IMG/VR virus record: IMGVR_UViG_3300005805_000108
Coordinates: 1-56,889 of that record
Strand: one strand, 5' to 3'
DNA length: 56,889 bases
Origin: a virus
Taxonomy: Duplodnaviria; Caudoviricetes
Positions 43,406-48,760 of the stretch are shown piece after piece. The translations under genes and the position numbers were made by a program. Positions within the stretch are counted from its first letter, which is position 1, and each line of letters opens with the position of its first letter. The notes beneath the pieces are model-generated. The model was not told where the DNA came from. It saw only the letters and a list, made by a program, of their open reading frames with translations, and did no database searches.

Positions 43406-43675
43406 TTGTTAAAACTAAAAACGCTATCAGTTAAAAATTTTATGAGTGTAGGTAATGCTACACAAGGTATAGATTTTGATCGTAATGATTTAACTCTTGT
43501 CTTAGGTGAAAACCTTGACTTAGGCGGCGATGACAACGGAAGTCGCAATGGCACAGGAAAGTGTGTTTGTATAAATACATTAGTAAAAGTAAGAAACACC
43601 ATAACTGGTGAAATTTACGAAACTACTGTAGGAGATTTATATAATGCCGCGCTGGAACAACAGTCTAGAAGATAA
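43406..43675 (+). CDS. gp46: gp46 (Rad50/SbcC-like ATPase) N-extein (52 aa) fused to split-intein N-fragment (37 aa)
   Basis: KNFMSVGN...NGTGK (Walker A, truncated) then CVCINTLV...TVGDLY intein block A starting at Cys 43562. Confidence 0.9.
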   Translation: MLKLKTLSVKNFMSVGNATQGIDFDRNDLTLVLGENLDLGGDDNGSRNGTGKCVCINTLVKVRNTITGEIYETTVGDLYNAALEQQSRR

Positions 43676-45094
43676 TTGCAAATTTGTTTTAGATAATATC
43701 ATTAAAAACATACACCCGATTATGCACCAAATAACATTATCAGATATAATTTCAGCTAATTTAGAAAATAATAAAAAAGTAATCGAACTATATATTAGAT
43801 CTAAATTAGGCATTACATCTACGTTATCCAGAAAAACAAAACAATACTGGATCTCTAGAGGGTGGAGCAACGATGAAGCATATATAAAATCGAAAGAAAA
43901 TACACAAAAAAATATCAAAAGCGTTTATAGTAGAGAATTTTGGTTAGAAAGAATTAATCCAACAACTGGAATTAATTATACAATTGACGAAGCAGATTTT
44001 GAAAGAAATAGTCGTCGTCCTATTAGAAAAGAGTATTGGATTCAGAAAGGATATACTGACCAAGAGGCAGAAACTCTAGCATTAGAATCTAAAAATAATA
44101 ATAATAAACTAGGAGCAAAATCATCATCTACTTCTATTGTTCGAAATGTTACATCGAAAAGATGCACAGAATATTATACTGTTCGAGGGTATTCTATAGA
44201 AGAGGCTAAAATTCTTGTTTCCAACGGGCAGAAATATTTTTCTAAAGAAATTTGTATTAAAAAGTACGGAGAAAAGAAAGGGTTAAAAGTTTGGCAAGAT
44301 AGACAAAATAGATGGCAAAATACATTAGCCGCTAAACCCGACGAAGAAAAGTTTAGGATTAATAGATTAAAATTGTCAAAAGGAATAACTGTTTCAAAAG
44401 CAGAAAAAATTATTTTTGAACAAATTAAAAATATATTTCCAACAGTCAAACATCAGTTTACACTGTCCGATGAATCAAATAAAAAACAATATGTTTATGA
44501 TATTAATATTGACAAAAAAATTATAGAATACAATGGCGACTTTTGGCACTCAAACCCTTCTAAATATTCTTCAGATTTTACAAATCCAAGAACAAAACTA
44601 AAAGCACTTGACAAATGGGCAATCGACGCGGCTAAAATTAAATACGCAGAATCCCAAGGATATAAAGTATTAGTAGTTTGGGAATCAGATTTTAAACTAA
44701 ACAAAGAAAAAGTTATTAAAGAATGCATACAATTTCTAACACAGTAACAAGAAAATTCATCAACAGTATAGATCTATCTAATCTAGAAATAGAAACAGAT
44801 AATGGATGGCAACCTATAAGTGCAATTCATAAAACAGTCCCTTACAATGTTTGGTATATTGAAACCATCAATGGCTTGGTTTTAGAATGCGCTGACGATC
44901 ATATTGTTTTTGACGAAAATTTTAACGAAATATTTGTTAAAAATATTAAAAAAAATATTACAAAAATCTTAACAAAGAATGGAGCAGAATTAGTTATTAG
45001 TGTAGAGAAAAAGAATAGACAAGAAAATATGTACGATGTTACAGTAGATCATCCAACACATAGATTCTACACCAATGACATAATTTCACATAAT
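43562..45094 (+). mobile_element. Split intein plus intervening free-standing endonuclease gene (fractured-gene cassette)
   Basis: IntN 43562-43672, endonuclease 43644-44747, IntC 44723-45094; removal rejoins GTGK|TT. Confidence 0.88.
43644..44747 (+). CDS. Putative homing endonuclease, Vsr-like / PD-(D/E)xK catalytic domain
   Basis: C-terminal SKAE...YVYDI...IIEYNGDFWH...GYKVLVVWESD; N-terminal [YF]W..[RK]G[YW][ST]..EA repeats; AGGAGA RBS at 43630-43635. Confidence 0.8.
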   Translation: MPRWNNSLEDNCKFVLDNIIKNIHPIMHQITLSDIISANLENNKKVIELYIRSKLGITSTLSRKTKQYWISRGWSNDEAYIKSKENTQKNIKSVYSREFWLERINPTTGINYTIDEADFERNSRRPIRKEYWIQKGYTDQEAETLALESKNNNNKLGAKSSSTSIVRNVTSKRCTEYYTVRGYSIEEAKILVSNGQKYFSKEICIKKYGEKKGLKVWQDRQNRWQNTLAAKPDEEKFRINRLKLSKGITVSKAEKIIFEQIKNIFPTVKHQFTLSDESNKKQYVYDINIDKKIIEYNGDFWHSNPSKYSSDFTNPRTKLKALDKWAIDAAKIKYAESQGYKVLVVWESDFKLNKEKVIKECIQFLTQ

Positions 45095-46711
45095 ACTACT
45101 ATTGCCAATGCACTTAGTTATGCCCTATATGGCCAGGCTCTTACTAATATTAAGCGTGATAATCTAATAAATAAAACCAATGGCAAAAACATGTTGGTAT
45201 GCTTAGATTTTGAAATTAGCGGCGAACACTACAGAATCGAACGTGGGCGAAAACCCAATGTTTTGAAATTCTATGTTAATAATCAAGAACAGGAAAGTAA
45301 AGATGATAACAGTCAGGGTGATAGCAGAGAAACTCAGCGTGATATAGAAAAACTGGTAAATCTGACACATGATATGTTCAAACATATTGTGGCACTTAAT
45401 ACCTATACCGAACCATTTTTAAGTTTGAAAGCACAGGATCAAAGAACCCTTATCGAACAACTACTAGGTATCACCCTGCTAAGTGAAAAAGCCGAGGGGC
45501 TCAAAGAACAGAATCGAATCACAAAAGAAGCTATTACCACAGAAGAATTTAGAATCAAAAGCGTAATCGACAGTAATGATCGGATACGTGAACAGATTAA
45601 AAATTTAGAAAAACGACAAACGTTATGGCAACGTAAGCGACAAGAAGACATTCAAGCGTTGCAAACAGCCTACGATAATCTTGCACAGTTAGATATCGAG
45701 CAAGAATTACAAAATCATAAAGAGCTTGCAATACATAAACAAAAATCTGAAGCAATAGTTAATCTAAGCAGTCGTGTTAAAATAGCGAAAAAAGAATATG
45801 ACAGAGAAATAGTAACTTATAATACTCTGTGTAAAGATGTAGAAAGTTTGATTAACCATGTTTGTCCTAGCTGCAATCAAAAATTTCATAGTAAAAAACA
45901 AAAAGAGACATTGGAACTTAAGATTAAACAACGAGATGAATCTAATGTTTTAGTAGAAAAGTTATTAGAAACTTATAATAATTTAATCAATGAACTCAAG
46001 CAGTTAGATACATTAGGCGAAAAACCGACAACATTTTACGAATTAGAATCTGATGCGTTCGAGCATAGAAGCAGTATGGCAAACTTACTAACAAAGATTT
46101 CTGACAAGCAGGAAGAAGCAGATCCTTATTATGAACAAATACAGGAAATGAAAACCACTGCACTATTAGAAATAAGCTATGATACTATAAATGAACTAAC
46201 AAAAATTCGAGAACATCAGGAATTTTTATTAAAATTGTTAACAAACAAAGACAGTTTTATACGTAAAAAAATTATTGATCAAAATTTAAACTACTTAAAT
46301 GCACGATTACAAACCTATCTCGAAAGAATTGGATTACCACATACAGTAAAATTTCAAAATGATCTTACTGTAAATATTGAAGAGTTAGGTAGAGAGTTAG
46401 ATTTTGATAATCTAAGTAGAGGCGAACGTAATAGATTAATTCTCAGTTTAAGTTGGGCTTTTCGGGATGTTTGGGAAAGTTTATATACTCCGATTAATCT
46501 GTTGTTTATCGATGAGGTTGTAGATAGTGGTATGGATAGTTCAGGAGTTGAAAATAGTCTAGCGATCTTGAAAAAAATGAGTAGAGAGACTCATAAAAGT
46601 GTATGGTTAGTCAGCCATAAGGATGAACTAGCGGGACGAGTAAACAATATTTTGACTGTAATAAAAGAAAATGGATTTACCAGTTATGCAACTGATACAC
46701 AGATTAATTAA
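44723..46711 (+). CDS. gp46: Split-intein C-fragment (124 aa) fused to gp46 C-extein (538 aa)
   Basis: LECADDH (block B His), MYDVTV (block F), FYTNDIISHN|T (block G, +1 Thr); then TTIANALSYALYG, zinc hook CPSC, LSRGE signature, LLFIDE Walker B, VSH. Confidence 0.92.
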   Translation: MHTISNTVTRKFINSIDLSNLEIETDNGWQPISAIHKTVPYNVWYIETINGLVLECADDHIVFDENFNEIFVKNIKKNITKILTKNGAELVISVEKKNRQENMYDVTVDHPTHRFYTNDIISHNTTIANALSYALYGQALTNIKRDNLINKTNGKNMLVCLDFEISGEHYRIERGRKPNVLKFYVNNQEQESKDDNSQGDSRETQRDIEKLVNLTHDMFKHIVALNTYTEPFLSLKAQDQRTLIEQLLGITLLSEKAEGLKEQNRITKEAITTEEFRIKSVIDSNDRIREQIKNLEKRQTLWQRKRQEDIQALQTAYDNLAQLDIEQELQNHKELAIHKQKSEAIVNLSSRVKIAKKEYDREIVTYNTLCKDVESLINHVCPSCNQKFHSKKQKETLELKIKQRDESNVLVEKLLETYNNLINELKQLDTLGEKPTTFYELESDAFEHRSSMANLLTKISDKQEEADPYYEQIQEMKTTALLEISYDTINELTKIREHQEFLLKLLTNKDSFIRKKIIDQNLNYLNARLQTYLERIGLPHTVKFQNDLTVNIEELGRELDFDNLSRGERNRLILSLSWAFRDVWESLYTPINLLFIDEVVDSGMDSSGVENSLAILKKMSRETHKSVWLVSHKDELAGRVNNILTVIKENGFTSYATDTQIN

Positions 46712-46755: not shown

Positions 46756-47277
46756 ATGACTAGCCCTCAAAAAGCCAAAGGTGGCAGTTTCGAACGTGAA
46801 ATTGCACGATTTCTATCTGAACAATATAATGAAAGTTTCATTAGAGCGCCAGGTAGTGGTGCCTATGTGGGCGGATCAAACAATGCAAGAAAACAGATTT
46901 TACATGATAATCAAATCAGATCATTCAAAGGCGATATTGTACCAGGACAAAGTTTTGGTAGATTAAATGCAGAATGTAAAAGTTATAAAGATTTTCCATT
47001 TCATCAACTATTTCAAGGCTCAATAAAATTGTTAGATTCATGGATCGATCAATGTATGGATGTAGCTGACGAAGGCGATTTCAGCATTTTATTCATGAAA
47101 TTCAACAGAAAAGGCACTTACACAGCAATAAAACTCAGTGACCCACACAACTTAAATTTAACCAATCATATTATATATAACTCAAAAAATCATGGCTCTT
47201 GGGCATTCATGGCACTAGACACATTTTTTCAACTTAATCACGAACAATTTCAAATTCTTTGTAATAAACAGGCATAG
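46756..47277 (+). CDS. Holliday junction resolvase-like (Hjc-type PD-(D/E)xK) nuclease
   Basis: KAKGGSFERE, R.PGSGA, GDI, ECK motifs. Confidence 0.75.
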   Translation: MTSPQKAKGGSFEREIARFLSEQYNESFIRAPGSGAYVGGSNNARKQILHDNQIRSFKGDIVPGQSFGRLNAECKSYKDFPFHQLFQGSIKLLDSWIDQCMDVADEGDFSILFMKFNRKGTYTAIKLSDPHNLNLTNHIIYNSKNHGSWAFMALDTFFQLNHEQFQILCNKQA

Positions 47278-47605
47278 TTTGGTCGAGGTAGCTCGACTCC
47301 CATTGAGGTTGCCAGGATAACTTCCTGTTGCCATCGGATCTTGGGTGCTAAAGGGTAAGGCTAACTTAAGGCTCAAAATGGTGAGGCTCTGTGAAAAAGA
47401 TACAACCTCGACTTATAGAATCTGGTCTATTTCGGATTACTAGGGTACCGTTGACATGCGAATGCTGAGTTAGGGGGTACAGGTCAACCGCCTCCGCACT
47501 GATATAATCAGTAAAACTCTTAGATAGATGGTTGCGAGACTCGGATGAACAACTATGAATTCGCCCGGCAACGGGCGAATTCTGGCTGATTGATCTGGAT
47601 GAACC
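47273..47605 (+). ncRNA. Candidate large structured non-coding RNA (family not recognised)
   Basis: 48% GC over 47281-47580 (hand count) in an AT-rich genome; many helices including an 11-bp stem with GCAA tetraloop (47557-47582) and long-range complementarities. Confidence 0.6.
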
Positions 47606-47606
47606 T

Positions 47607-47673
47607 AAGAAAAGAAAAATAGAAAAAAATATCACTGAGCGTTAGCGAAGTGATAGATGTACGTAGTACATCT
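47607..47673 (-). terminator. Possible intrinsic terminator for the gp26-gp51 transcript
   Basis: Two adjacent hairpins (47655-47673, 47630-47655) followed on the - strand by a long U-rich tract. Confidence 0.5.
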
Positions 47674-47891
47674 TAAAAGTAAGGCAATCCTGTTTTCTTA
47701 GTAAGCTCTAAATTACTTTCAATTATATCAGCAATTAGTTTTTGTTCTGCAGCAGATAATGATAGTGCTTCCGCATAACTTAATCCACCACGCATATGCC
47801 AACAAAATGTTAATAACGTTTTTTTTAAGGCCTTTGAATCTTTGTCCATACGTTCAATTTCTTGGACAATTTCCTCGTCAGTTAAACTCAA
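47673..47891 (-). CDS. Baseplate hub assembly protein, gp51-like
   Basis: CWHMRGGLSY.EA..LS..E motif; directly follows gp26-like gene; TTG start. Confidence 0.6.
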   Translation of the reverse strand: MSLTDEEIVQEIERMDKDSKALKKTLLTFCWHMRGGLSYAEALSLSAAEQKLIADIIESNLELTKKTGLPYF

Positions 47892-47896
47892 AAGCC

Positions 47897-48760
47897 TTAG
47901 ACGAAAAAATGACTGGTTTCAAATTCGATTGGCGTTACATAAGATTTATTACAATCATCATGATCACAGGTTACAGTCAATTCTTTGCTTTTTTGTTGTA
48001 AATCCGAATATTCCTGCAATTTTGCCTTAATTGCATTCCATATATCTTTATTACAGTTAGCGAAAAATTCTTTTATAAACGCAGGATTATCTACTACTTC
48101 GCTTTTATCTATTTTTACCGCAGCTACAGATGCACTGACTTGTTCTACTGTAATATTAACTAGATTATTGAATATTTTACGAAACTCCGCAACTTTTTGC
48201 TCTTCGGGCAAACTGGTATCCTGTACTACAGATAATAATTTTTGTTGTTCAAAATTTTCTATACTGGTTTGATTGAAATTTGCAAAATTATTAGGTCTAA
48301 GAAAAATTTCAAGTGTATCAAATTTCATTGATTGATCATAGTCTGGACAGACAAATCTGGTAGTGTAAATGCTAAGATCTAATGCATGTTCATTTTTACG
48401 TTTACAGTGAGGACACACATTAGTAAATTCCATATGATTTCCGTATGTCGCCTGTCTGATACTGATTAAAATAGAATCTAAATCCACTAAGGGCATTGCC
48501 CAGGCATTACGTATTGCAGGAATACAGCTTTGAATTACATCAACTGTGCCCTGGCCATTCATTACTGCATCTGGTGTTTTCAATAATAACTCATCTCTTG
48601 CTGTCATTGCAAATACTGGTAACTCACCGTTTGCAGGCATTTCTATTGAATCTTTAGGCCACCAACGCCCTTTACTGGGCAATTTAAGATATATTTGAGG
48701 CTGTCTAAAAAATTTAGAAAGCGGGTTGACATTATCTTTGTTAGTTGAATGATCAGTCAT
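47897..48760 (-). CDS. gp26: Baseplate hub subunit gp26-like
   Basis: LPSKG, MTARDELLL, DLDSILISIR..TYG, CPHC and C-terminal CDHDDC...FF motifs. Confidence 0.75.
   Translation of the reverse strand: MTDHSTNKDNVNPLSKFFRQPQIYLKLPSKGRWWPKDSIEMPANGELPVFAMTARDELLLKTPDAVMNGQGTVDVIQSCIPAIRNAWAMPLVDLDSILISIRQATYGNHMEFTNVCPHCKRKNEHALDLSIYTTRFVCPDYDQSMKFDTLEIFLRPNNFANFNQTSIENFEQQKLLSVVQDTSLPEEQKVAEFRKIFNNLVNITVEQVSASVAAVKIDKSEVVDNPAFIKEFFANCNKDIWNAIKAKLQEYSDLQQKSKELTVTCDHDDCNKSYVTPIEFETSHFFV

What the first reader, a model, noticed from the sequence alone, without database searches (positions are those of the whole stretch)
47273..47605. Candidate large, pseudoknotted non-coding RNA between resolvase and gp51 genes
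Seen: the longest intergenic gap in the window is 48% GC (47281-47580) and full of complementarity. Hairpins: GTCGAG/CTCGAC (47282-47297), CAGGA/TCCTG (47313-47327), GAGG/CCTC (47383-47409), ACTGAT/ATCAGT (47498-47512), and a perfect 11-bp GAATTCGCCCG-GCAA-CGGGCGAATTC (47557-47582). Long-range pairs: CATAGTT/AACTATG (47273-79 with 47551-57), CCATTGAG with CTC..AATGG (47300-07 with 47372-81), TCTATTT/AGATAGA (47426-32 with 47522-28), GTTGAC/GTCAAC (47450-55 with 47483-88). CTAACTT/GAGTTAG (47361-67 with 47467-73) would cross these as a pseudoknot. GGATGAAC occurs twice, flanking the GCAA hairpin. GNRA loops read on the + strand. I see no tRNA, tmRNA, RNase P or group I/II intron signature. Inference: an unclassified, ribozyme-sized RNA, or a primer-RNA/origin element.
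Basis: partly seen in the sequence, partly recalled or inferred. Interest (0 to 1): 0.82.

Follow-up and report, generated by a model that had tools for sequence, protein, structure and literature searches.

The report
New large pseudoknotted jumbo-phage RNA
The gap holds a gene for a roughly 400-base, highly folded non-coding RNA that is conserved in hundreds of uncultured freshwater giant phages, matches no described RNA family, and carries two short identical sequence elements that always change together, which no known RNA mechanism readily explains.

Summary
Window 47270-47605 (+) is conserved on the same strand in 207 distinct sequences defined by profile match. These come from viral, metagenome and three MAG contigs. 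Rfam 15 gives no hit even at E<=10, and ARAGORN finds nothing.

Covariation is strong. On an alignment fitted to the model, 97.1% of cells pair against 75.3% in shuffles, and 39 of 44 pairs show compensatory changes. Three others are not supported.

The unit extends 3' through an A-rich linker to two conserved hairpins (47631-47673). Variant 5' and middle domains occur at the same locus.

The most unusual feature is the pair of 7-nt elements flanking the GCAA hairpin (47543-49 and 47597-603). They are identical in 192 of 207 members, with more than 20 matched variants. No complementary partner was found in cis, or in trans in two partial genomes.

Function is unknown. My best guess (about 0.35) is a trans-acting RNA that presents one recognition element in two alternative registers. 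Expression is untested. The link to the resolvase gene is not general (14 of 111).

The parts
47270..47605 (+). Conserved structured core of the RNA (type A). The 5' end overlaps the resolvase stop codon (47275-77). True transcript ends are unknown.
   Evidence: Covariance model R1 matches 47270-47609 at 279 bits. There are 207 distinct members defined by profile match.
47282..47297 (+). P1 hairpin (GTCGAG / CTCGAC).
   Evidence: Read. The stem sequence differs among members but stays complementary when I read the alignments. The MAFFT columns are poorly aligned here (62.6% paired).
47299..47345 (+). P2 (47299-302 with 47342-45), enclosing the P3 hairpin (47307-17 with 47323-35).
   Evidence: P2 pairs in 100% of cells, and all 4 pairs show changes on both sides. 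On A4 it pairs in 98.8% of cells.
47347..47350 (+). 5' strand of long-range helix P4. It pairs with 47583-86 in module M2. It is also complementary to 47529-32 in module M1, giving an alternative helix P4'.
   Evidence: P4 pairs in 90.1% of cells and 93.1%. Both alternative partners passed the 85% pairing filter, with 2-3 pair types per position.
47359..47373 (+). P5 hairpin with a conserved 9-nt loop, TAACTTAAG (47362-70).
   Evidence: 91.2% of cells paired, and 2 of 3 pairs compensatory. Loop conservation is seen.
47383..47409 (+). P6 two-part hairpin (47383-86/47406-09 and 47390-93/47401-04) with nearly invariant internal sequence.
   Evidence: 100% and 96.5% of cells paired. 99.7% and 100% paired on A4.
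47411..47446 (+). P7 hairpin (47411-14/47443-46 and 47419-24/47433-38). Its loop, 47426-32, forms pseudoknot PK2.
   Evidence: 96.2% and 95.0% of cells paired. All 7 inner pairs are compensatory.
47450..47495 (+). H-type pseudoknot. PK1 (47450-55 with 47483-88) is interleaved with P9 (47473-78 with 47490-95). This is the most conserved block of the family.
   Evidence: PK1 and P9 each pair in 100% of cells. A pattern drawn from this block hit 116 of 120 viral loci that also match the profile.
47467..47519 (+). PK4 (probable): 47467-70 (GAGT) pairs with 47516-19 (ACTC).
   Evidence: Matched partners beat mismatched ones in 45 of 72 sequences. Compensatory variants are read in the divergent subtype. 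Support on type A is weak.
47498..47512 (+). P10 variable hairpin, which carries large insertions in some members.
   Evidence: 99.6% of cells paired, and all 3 modelled pairs are compensatory.
47522..47528 (+). 3' strand of pseudoknot PK2. It pairs with the P7 loop at 47426-32.
   Evidence: Matched -9.2 against mismatched -6.0 kcal/mol, better in 68 of 76. Mean helix length is 8.3 bp against 5.8 bp, with 49 distinct helix sequences.
47529..47553 (+). Module M1. It consists of TGGT (the counterpart of UGAC in most members), a spacer, the prefix ACTC (47539-42), and element X(A) GGATGAA (47543-49). X(A) is displayed in the loop of a short hairpin, P12 (47531-34 with 47550-53).
   Evidence: Repeat listings. 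P12 matched -4.18 against -2.80 kcal/mol, better in 50 of 71. A second test was weak.
47557..47582 (+). P11, a perfect 11-bp hairpin with a GCAA loop, lying between the two modules.
   Evidence: 89.4% of cells paired and 96.9%, with 6 of 7 modelled pairs compensatory. On the + strand no T-run follows, so it is not a terminator there.
47583..47603 (+). Module M2. It consists of TGGC (the 3' strand of P4), a spacer, the prefix ATCT (47593-96), and element X(B) GGATGAA (47597-603).
   Evidence: X(B) equals X(A) in 192 of 207 members. The X columns covary only with each other.
47606..47630 (+). A-rich linker of variable length. Some members have an extra small hairpin here.
47631..47654 (+). H1 hairpin: a 6-bp variable stem, tandem G-A/A-G, a 2-bp GC step, and a 4-nt loop.
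   Evidence: The core motif lies downstream in 80 of 85 members, with 75 distinct sequences; the folds printed show one architecture. The window holds a single exact match. H1 is also present in type C.
47655..47673 (+). H2 hairpin (8 bp), directly abutting H1. It ends at the stop codon of the convergent 72-aa ORF and is the probable 3' end or terminator region.
   Evidence: for folds with many different stems. for the ORF end at 47673.

Best explanation
**What it is (near-certain, about 0.97).** This is a single-copy gene for a large non-coding RNA of uncultured freshwater T4-like jumbo phages. It is read on the + strand. It lies at the end of the gp47/gp46 (SbcD/SbcC-like) recombination operon and is convergent with a baseplate gene. 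The core is about 335 nt. The whole unit, with linker and two terminal hairpins, is about 400 nt (47270-47673).

The RNA folds into a compact core of at least 11 helices and two firm pseudoknots (PK1/P9 and PK2), with a probable third (PK4). The joining segments are almost invariant. Such a fold is built for a tertiary structure, whether an RNP scaffold or a ribozyme, and not for simple antisense action.

**How it most likely works (inferred, about 0.35).** The core carries a repeat-hairpin-repeat cassette. Two homologous modules, M1 and M2, each hold a UGAC-type tetramer and, about 10 nt later, an identical single-stranded 7-mer (X). One 4-nt strand of the core (47347-50) can pair with the tetramer of either module.

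The RNA could therefore sit in two registers, each placing the same 7-mer at the same spot. I propose that X is a recognition element read by one external reader with strict base specificity. On this reading the two copies are presented in turn or together, which is why they must stay identical.

**Shown:** conservation, strand, structure, the identity and joint change of the two X copies, and the absence of a complementary partner nearby.

For: **Conservation**
- The profile matches 61 of 80 loci fetched through the resolvase gene. Every match is on the gene's strand and just downstream of it.
- It matches 116 of 120 viral loci found by a DNA pattern alone.
- In all there are 207 distinct members defined by profile match.
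- The RNA is single-copy in 4 of 4 large records, including a complete 346,856-bp genome.

**Structure**
- RNAalifold predicts 43 pairs, 26 of them compensatory.
- My hand-drawn structure with pseudoknots has 66 of 88 pairs with changes on both sides. None of 500 shuffles reached any measure.
- On the model-fitted alignment 97.1% of cells pair, against 75.3% in shuffles and at most 45.6% when the partner is slid. 39 of 44 pairs are compensatory.
- G-U pairs occur on the + strand only, for example 69 G-U and 20 A-U at one P9 pair.

**Not coding:**

**Not a known family:**

**The X elements**
- X(A) and X(B) are identical 7-mers in 192 of 207 members. They differ at one position in 11, and at two or three in 4, mostly where my parser failed.
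- There are more than 20 distinct matched variants.
- Paired comparisons on supported branches: position 1 went the same way in about 20 of 21 pairs and never the opposite way. Position 5 did so in 12 of 12, and position 7 in about 10 of 10.
- Mutual information between the two copies is 0.70-0.98 bits. No other column within -240 to +320 nt exceeds 0.27.

**Both tetramers** are complementary to 47347-50 across the family.
Against: - No transcript evidence exists. No RNA run was on offer, so expression and transcript ends are unknown.
- No reader was found. There is no complementary site in cis. There is none in the window. None covaries between two related partial genomes that differ in X.
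- An external nucleic-acid partner would have to change as often as X does, which is hard to picture.
- The tree counts were made on rows pre-filtered to at most 1 mismatch, and on a tree that recombination may distort. The figure of 77-79 switches is therefore an upper-end estimate. The safer statement is more than 20 matched variants, including 9 of the 12 combinations at three variable positions (a tenth read by eye in type B).
- Identity could be kept by a copying process instead of by selection.
- Helix P12 and the alternative P4' rest on short helices with weak statistics.
- In rare variants such as L182 the tetramers changed in both modules while the core strand did not.
- The divergent subtype B has both modules, but I did not find its P4 5' strand.
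Confidence: 0.4

Rival explanations
1. Identity by copying, not by function. The RNA is a cis-acting 3' element of the recombination-gene operon, serving 3'-end formation, protection from exonucleases, or termination between convergent genes. The two X copies are loosely constrained spacers, kept alike by templated misalignment of the replication machinery across the P11 hairpin.
For: - The RNA starts at the stop codon of the upstream gene, and the consensus scan found no promoter-like site directly upstream.
- It ends in two conserved hairpins at a convergent gene junction.
- No partner for X was found anywhere.
- In some lineages the likeness extends into the prefix (L177, L166), as a conversion tract would.
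- The site is a hotspot for free-standing endonuclease genes: SegE-type GIY-YIG in L172 and PDDEXK here. That implies frequent local recombination.
Against: - A 335-nt core with two or three pseudoknots and near-invariant junctions is far more than 3'-end protection needs.
- The spacers and prefixes of the two modules stay different (CTC against TCT), although they lie within 10 nt of X. Conversion should blur them.
- X is not free. 171 of 194 sequences carry G, A and T at positions 2-4, and A at position 6 is near-invariant.
- Conversion between 7-nt repeats has no known efficient mechanism (my own knowledge).
Confidence: 0.2
2. Take-off and landing. The cassette makes a machine that is carrying a base-paired strand leave one X, skip the hairpin, and re-pair at the other X. 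Known examples are the ribosome hop of T4 gene 60 and the template jump of DRT2-type reverse-transcriptase RNAs. Identity is then required, and no covarying partner is needed, because the partner is the tRNA or the nascent strand.
For: - It explains three facts together: identity, the lack of a partner, and free switching of X.
- The geometry fits. The repeats flank a stable hairpin, with a repeat-to-repeat distance of 44-76 nt and a mode of 55.
- In about 88% of members, positions 4-6 of X read as a TGA or TAA triplet after a sense triplet (derived from the counts).
- The lineage is T4-like.
Against: - No ORF leads into X(A). A 6-codon mini-frame from the module's ATG is in frame in only part of the family, and is out of frame where the spacer is 1 nt longer.
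- The landing copy is followed by the same stop triplet, so a hop would achieve nothing.
- Likeness extends over 7 nt, not 3.
- The unit length shows no multiple-of-3 preference (54, 99 and 56 for remainders 0, 1 and 2).
- No RVT_1 reverse transcriptase was found in 4 of 4 RNA-bearing records, including the complete genome.
Confidence: 0.12
3. A DNA-level or RNA/DNA element. This could be a replication origin with a structured primer RNA, in which the two X copies act as iteron-like protein sites or primer re-alignment sites. It could instead be a recombination or homing hotspot.
For: - The direct repeats lie about five helical turns apart.
- The element sits next to recombination genes and free-standing endonuclease genes.
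Against: - G-U pairs and compensatory changes on one strand point to selection on RNA.
- GC skew and gene orientation switch near 41.5 kb, not here.
- In the complete genome the RNA is internal and single-copy.
- A protein reader would have to change specificity many times.
Confidence: 0.1
4. A self-processing ribozyme that cuts at both X sites and releases or circularises the P11 cassette.
For: The size and complexity are typical of ribozymes. There are two identical candidate sites, and the alternative docking P4/P4' could bring each into one active site.
Against: - No internal guide covaries with X.
- No resemblance to any ribozyme family in Rfam.
- No biochemical data.
Confidence: 0.08
5. 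A very divergent member of a known class (tmRNA, RNase P RNA, group I intron, GOLLD or ROOL) that the models miss.
For: Huge phages are reported to encode tmRNAs (recalled, no call). The RNA is rich in pseudoknots. Like GOLLD as I recall it, it is lake-derived, with a conserved 3' half and a variable 5' half.
Against: - Zero Rfam matches at E<=10 on 701 nt.
- ARAGORN finds nothing.
- The 5' and 3' ends do not pair into an acceptor stem.
- There are no flanking exons.
Confidence: 0.03

Closest known systems
GOLLD, ROOL and OLE: large ornate bacterial and phage non-coding RNAs of unknown function
   Same: It is a large, multi-helix, pseudoknotted RNA found by comparative genomics. It is phage-borne and comes from lake metagenomes. 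The conserved 3' half is joined to variable 5' architecture (types A and B). No function is known. For PMC12286853 I saw only the listing and the start of the abstract. That text says these RNAs form homo-oligomers.
   Different: There is no sequence or structure match to their Rfam models. At about 335-400 nt it is roughly half their size. Its hosts are T4-like jumbo phages. The co-changing identical repeats are not a described feature of those RNAs, to my knowledge.
Translational bypass (hop) cassette of phage T4 gene 60
   Same: It occurs in a T4-like phage. Two matched short sequences flank a stable hairpin, with a gap of about 50 nt. In most members a stop triplet directly follows the first three bases of the element. 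The features of gene 60 are recalled, not taken from a call.
   Different: No long ORF runs into it. The second copy is also followed by the stop triplet. Identity spans 7 nt. The cassette is embedded in a conserved 280-nt pseudoknotted core that gene 60 does not have.
Template-jump non-coding RNAs of defence reverse transcriptases (DRT2 type) and telomerase RNA templates
   Same: A structured RNA with pseudoknots or stems in which short identical motifs bracket a stem-bounded segment. There, identity lets a nascent strand re-align (recalled).
   Different: No reverse transcriptase gene is present in 4 of 4 records, including a complete genome. The unit length is not a multiple of 3. It is phage-encoded, not a host defence locus.
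tmRNA
   Same: Pseudoknot-rich, 300-400 nt. tmRNAs are known to be carried by some huge phages (recalled).
   Different: ARAGORN finds none, and no tmRNA model in Rfam matches. There is no tRNA-like pairing of the ends.
Candidate structured RNAs of IMG/VR (Fremin et al. 2023, PMC10690425)
   Same: Same data source and the same kind of discovery. That paper mentions candidates near resolvase and RusA genes (passages read).
   Different: Their candidates are 29-151 nt, lie upstream of genes, and are read as cis-regulatory. A 335-nt unit downstream of the gene is not described in the passages I saw.

Membership tests
Any Rfam 15 family (4227 models, including tmRNA, RNase P, group I/II introns, GOLLD, ROOL, OLE, HEARO, riboswitches and ribozymes) | Score at or above the curated gathering threshold of the family's covariance model | tested here: not met
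   0 matches in the whole window at gathering score. 0 matches at E<=10 in 47100-47800 on both strands.
tRNA / tmRNA | Cloverleaf or tRNA-like domain with an acceptor stem; for tmRNA, a tag reading frame as well | tested here: not met
   ARAGORN finds 0 genes in the window.
Cis-regulatory leader or riboswitch | Lies upstream of, and on the same strand as, the gene it controls | tested here: not met
   The next genes downstream are on the opposite strand (47673-47891 and 47897-48760). A convergent baseplate gene lies downstream in 52 of 124 members with enough flank held.
Intrinsic terminator (for the GCAA hairpin P11) | GC-rich hairpin followed by a T-run on the transcribed strand | tested here: not met
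   On the + strand no T-run follows, and the conserved RNA continues. The scan calls P11 only on the - strand.
T4 gene-60-type ribosomal bypass | Matched take-off and landing codons around a gap of about 50 nt that holds a hairpin | tested here: met
   Identical 7-mers in 192 of 207 members. Spacing is 44-76 nt with a mode of 55.
T4 gene-60-type ribosomal bypass | A long ORF that enters the take-off site and resumes after the landing site | tested here: not met
   Stops occur in all frames. There is only a 6-codon frame, and it is not kept across the family. The landing copy is followed by the same stop triplet.
Reverse-transcriptase-associated template RNA (DRT2-like, retron, telomerase-like) | A reverse transcriptase encoded with or near the RNA | tested here: not met
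   PF00078 is found in 0 of 4 RNA-bearing records, one of them 100% complete. The control genomes did match.
Large ornate homo-oligomeric RNAs (GOLLD/ROOL/OLE kind) | Forms defined RNA-only multimers | not testable with these tools
   Needs native gels or cryo-EM. In most members the M2 prefix plus X1-4 is a self-complementary 8-mer (read). That is only a hint.
Protein-coding gene | A conserved open reading frame | tested here: not met
   The median longest stop-free run is 43 codons (+ strand) and 60 codons (- strand) in 85 members. Only 10 of 85 reach 80 codons or more on the - strand.

The most novel reading that the evidence does not exclude
This is a new class of phage RNA machine. A conserved multi-pseudoknot core uses two identity-matched sites around a hairpin to carry out a programmed jump, exchange or excision. 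The partner would be a nascent strand, a tRNA, or the RNA's own other register, and not a fixed complementary sequence. It would be an RNA-level counterpart of the T4 gene 60 hop, and would explain why the two 7-mers change together without any covarying partner.
Probability: 0.15. Interest if true: 0.95.

Novelty: categorically new. Interest (0 to 1): 0.86.

Why it matters
Large non-coding RNAs with complex folds are rare, and historically most have turned out to be ribozymes or the cores of important RNPs. This one is abundant in freshwater viral metagenomes. It is single-copy in jumbo phage genomes, and it is absent from Rfam and from the papers I could search.

It also presents a clean evolutionary puzzle. 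Two 7-nt elements, 44-76 nt apart, stay identical through more than 20 variants, and nothing complementary changes with them. Ordinary RNA covariation means complementarity. Covariation by identity points to an unknown reader, a two-register switch, a jump mechanism, or an unusually efficient local copying process. Any of these would be new for phage RNA biology.

The family gives a ready alignment for R-scape, structure probing and cryo-EM. It also gives a simple genetic test: change one copy, the other, or both.

Tried and rejected
**Known families.** Rfam at gathering score and at E<=10 gave nothing, and ARAGORN found nothing. blastn of the region against 50,697 phage records found no match. 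Covariance model R1 found no match in three cultured relatives searched whole: Salicola SCTP-2, Pseudomonas PA5oct and Sinorhizobium Phosso. The search tool itself warns that such an empty answer shows little.

**Expression.** The run search listed 20 DNA holders from 11 studies (lake, freshwater, estuary and aquatic). No RNA holder was listed, so expression is untested.

**Reads.** Contigs of four DNA runs were laid on 47150-47750. No joint across the P11 cassette appeared. Contigs cannot show rare variants, so this says nothing either way. The joints and loose ends that were listed come from other family members in the same samples.

**A cis partner for X.**
- Own-sequence complement scan.
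- Matched against mismatched duplex energies for seven parts of the RNA, and for 130 nt downstream.
- Mutual-information scan.
- None of these found a partner.
- Hints at the 5' leader and at the H1 5' strand did not covary.

**A trans partner for X.**
- The window has no complement of the 8-mer.
- In the records holding L027 and L018, complements occur at chance level.
- A cluster about 560 nt downstream lies in a conserved coding stretch of the convergent gene.
- In two related partial genomes that differ at X position 1, only the X sites themselves are homologous.
- These genomes are 55% and 48% complete, so a partner elsewhere is not excluded.

**Mini-ORFs in the modules.** Rejected because the frame is not conserved. 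That script dropped insertion columns at segment borders. I corrected for this by eye.

**Concatemer coding (Neo-like).** Rejected because the unit length is not a multiple of 3.

**Stop-codon reassignment.** Rejected because all three stop codons occur in every + strand frame.

**Origin at a skew switch.** Rejected.

**A link between X and the first bases of H2.** Suggested by L088.

**Functional link to the resolvase.** Weakened: 14 of 111, and 15 of 113, which used a looser member list.

**Methods that failed or carry caveats.**
- The regex-based parsing caught only 50 of 85 sequences and was replaced.
- Rows were dropped as follows. One search used 194 unique rows with at most 1 mismatch between the X copies and at least 200 nt held upstream. 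One search used 187 rows. Searches left out loci L001-L080, which had been fetched with the resolvase as query. Some pattern loci are the same contigs fetched again.
- Supplementary files of PMC10690425 were closed. Fragments of this RNA may be listed there.

**Literature.** Four searches found no description of this RNA. I read passages of PMC10690425. For all other papers I saw only listings and the starts of abstracts.
Full report
**Setting.** The window is a 56.9-kb fragment of an IMG/VR virus record, about 16% complete, with GC near 0.33.

Upstream of the finding, on the + strand, lie:
- a Metallophos (SbcD/gp47-like) gene;
- two ORFs of an SbcC/gp46-like gene;
- a 173-aa PDDEXK_15 endonuclease at 46756-47277.

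Downstream, on the - strand, lie a 72-aa ORF (47673-47891) and a T4_baseplate gene (47897-48760).

The nearest cultured relatives of the endonuclease are jumbo phages: Salicola SCTP-2 at 45% identity and the Pseudomonas PA5oct group at 41%. Public DNA runs that hold the stretch are from lake, freshwater, estuary and aquatic samples.

**The observation.** The gap stands out at GC 0.48. It folds better on the + strand (z -2.37) than on the - strand (z -1.64). It holds no conserved ORF, no tRNA or tmRNA, and no Rfam match, even at E<=10.

**Conservation.**
- The endonuclease query found 538 relatives in viral contigs, of which 80 loci were kept. A single-sequence nhmmer search found the RNA just downstream, on the same strand, in 29 of them at E<1e-15. 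A profile raised this to 61 of 80.
- A 23-letter degenerate pattern from the most conserved block was scanned in three collections. Genome contigs of 185,579 species gave 35 stretches, of which only 3 are real: two contigs of a Haliscomenobacter MAG and one of a Flavobacterium MAG.
- After removing duplicates there are 207 distinct members defined by profile match.
- The RNA is single-copy in four large records. One is a complete 346,856-bp genome with terminal repeats, where it lies at 195,305-195,635.
- Covariance model R1 found nothing in three cultured jumbo phages searched whole.

**Structure.**
- RNAalifold on 21 sequences predicted 43 pairs, 26 of them compensatory.
- I drew a structure by hand on the window and mapped it to a 53-sequence MAFFT alignment. 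It gave 66 of 88 pairs with changes on both sides. None of 500 shuffles reached any of the five measures, and the values fell sharply when partners were slid.
- Helices P2, P6, PK1 and P9 pair in 100% of cells. P4, P5, P7 and P11 pair in 89-97%.
- Helices in poorly aligned variable regions scored low there. I tested them without an alignment, by comparing each member's own partner with partners taken from other members. PK2 gave -9.2 against -6.0 kcal/mol, better in 68 of 76. P12 gave -4.18 against -2.80, better in 50 of 71. PK4 was better in 45 of 72. PK2 helices average 8.3 bp against 5.8 bp, with 49 distinct sequences.
- On the 89-sequence alignment fitted to model R1, which therefore leans towards that structure, 97.1% of cells pair against 75.3% in shuffles, and 39 of 44 pairs are compensatory.
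- Frequent G-U pairs fix the strand as +.
- The result is a compact fold. P1, P2/P3, P5, P6 and P7 form the 5' half. An H-type pseudoknot (PK1/P9) follows. Its first loop pairs downstream (PK4), and the P7 loop pairs next to that (PK2). A long-range helix, P4, closes the whole central domain.
- The joining strands are nearly invariant.

**Extent.** The conserved unit does not stop at 47605. After an A-rich linker come two abutting hairpins, H1 (47631-54) and H2 (47655-73). H1 has a stem, tandem G-A/A-G, a GC step and a 4-nt loop. The H1 core motif lies downstream in 80 of 85 members, with 75 distinct sequences, and the folds printed show the same architecture. The H1 core occurs exactly once in the window. 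H2 ends at the stop codon of the convergent ORF.

**Family variants.** Members with lower scores fall into two further types.
- Type B (for example L016 and L039) keeps the 3' half: PK1/P9, PK4, PK2, both modules and P11. Its 5' half is different.
- Type C (for example L056, 440-520 nt) keeps the P1-P3 start and H1/H2. Its middle is different, and it has its own repeat-hairpin-repeat.

**The unusual part.**
- Two modules flank P11. Each has a UGAC-type tetramer, a 7-8-nt spacer, a fixed prefix (ACTC in M1, ATCT in M2), and then a 7-mer, X.
- The spacers and prefixes differ between the modules and are each conserved. The tetramers and X are the same in both modules and vary between phages.
- In columns defined by position, the two copies agree almost perfectly. 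At position 5, both copies read G 61, A 22, C 2.
- In the enlarged set, 192 of 207 members have identical 7-mers, and 11 differ at one base.
- More than 20 matched variants exist, including 9 of the 12 combinations at positions 1, 5 and 7 (a tenth read by eye in type B). A crossover cannot create these in both copies at once.
- On a tree built with X masked, X changes at least 77 times. Paired comparisons on supported branches never went opposite ways: position 1 about 20 of 21, position 5 12 of 12, position 7 about 10 of 10. The rows were pre-filtered and recombination is likely, so I treat 77 as an upper-end estimate.
- X covaries with nothing else within -240 to +320 nt. The mutual information is 0.70-0.98 bits between the copies, and at most 0.27 with any other column.
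- No complement of X is shared by two related partial genomes that differ in X.
- Both tetramers are complementary to the P4 5' strand. The core could therefore close on either module.

**What explains identity without a partner.** I considered five possibilities:
- One external reader with strict base specificity, seeing two copies of one site in two registers.
- A copying process across the hairpin.
- A take-off and landing event, as in T4 gene 60 or in template-jumping reverse transcriptases.
- DNA-level sites.
- Self-processing at two sites.

The data speak against:
- translation;
- a phage reverse transcriptase;
- an origin at a skew switch;
- an internal guide.

The data do not decide between the first two possibilities. 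I favour the first (about 0.35), because X keeps a clear composition: G, A and T at positions 2-4 in 171 of 194 sequences, and A at position 6 in 187 of 194. In addition, the neighbouring prefixes and spacers are not homogenised. This is inference. No transcript, reader or activity has been seen.

**Context correction.** The RNA is not tied to the resolvase. The counts below cover members found by DNA pattern alone with enough flank held.

| Neighbouring gene | Position relative to the RNA | Members |
|---|---|---|
| Resolvase | within 1.7 kb upstream | 14 of 111 |
| gp46-like C-terminus | within 3 kb upstream | 52 of 83 |
| Convergent baseplate gene | within 1.5 kb downstream | 52 of 124 |

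In L172 the upstream genes are a SegE-type GIY-YIG endonuclease and a radical-SAM protein. The RNA therefore marks a variable island between the recombination operon and the baseplate genes, where free-standing endonuclease genes come and go.

**Novelty.**
- No Rfam family matches.
- Four full-text searches found no description of the RNA.
- The IMG/VR survey of structured RNAs reports candidates of 29-151 nt. Its supplements were closed, so fragments of this RNA may be listed there.
- I rate the RNA as a new family with a feature that no known class explains.

Noticed in passing
L016, L039, L044, L034, L021 and others (for example L016:4524-4821): A sister form (type B) of the RNA at the same locus. 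Its 3' half is the same (PK1/P9, PK4, PK2, both modules with matched X, P11), but its 5' half is unrelated.
   Followed up: partly
L056:3586-4056 and about 15 further loci (L050, L071, L065, L059, L055 and others): A third form (type C, 440-520 nt). It shares the P1-P3 start and the H1/H2 end but has a different conserved middle. It has its own direct repeats (a GGCAA-type motif) flanking a 9-bp hairpin. In L055 both repeat copies carry the same unusual variant.
   Followed up: partly
window 43644-44747 and 44723-46711 (+): The SbcC/gp46-like gene appears as two overlapping ORFs in different frames. As I read it, the second begins with a stretch that looks like the C-terminal end of an intein. 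Pfam gave no family for either ORF, so this rests on reading and recall.
   Followed up: no
L172:1965-3334 (-): In this member the genes directly upstream of the RNA are a SegE-type GIY-YIG endonuclease (E 5e-33) and a radical-SAM protein, not the PDDEXK resolvase. The site is a variable island for free-standing endonuclease genes.
   Followed up: partly
L211 and L214 (two contigs, 148 kb and 183 kb, of one Haliscomenobacter MAG); L221 (Flavobacterium MAG, 6 kb): These are the only hits in 185,579 species' genomes. They are probably jumbo-phage contigs binned with their host, which would point to Bacteroidota hosts. The two contigs in one MAG each carry a different copy of the RNA.
   Followed up: no
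window 47593-47600, and the same place in most members: The M2 prefix plus the first four bases of X forms a self-complementary 8-mer (with G-U in the window's variant). This could support RNA dimerisation. Rare X variants break it.
   Followed up: partly
window 47606-47630 and homologous linkers (for example L102, L015, L073): The A-rich linker between M2 and H1 varies from about 15 to more than 60 nt. In several members it carries an extra small hairpin with a 4-nt loop.
   Followed up: no
window 47150-47750 in runs X3, X4, X6 and X7: Contigs of other family members, with different X variants, co-occur in the same samples as the window's phage. Several related phages with different X therefore share a habitat.
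   Followed up: no
window 47366-47635 (-): An 89-aa ORF with a GTG start lies antisense to the RNA. Comparable open runs of 80 codons or more occur in only 10 of 85 members, so it is probably chance.
   Followed up: yes
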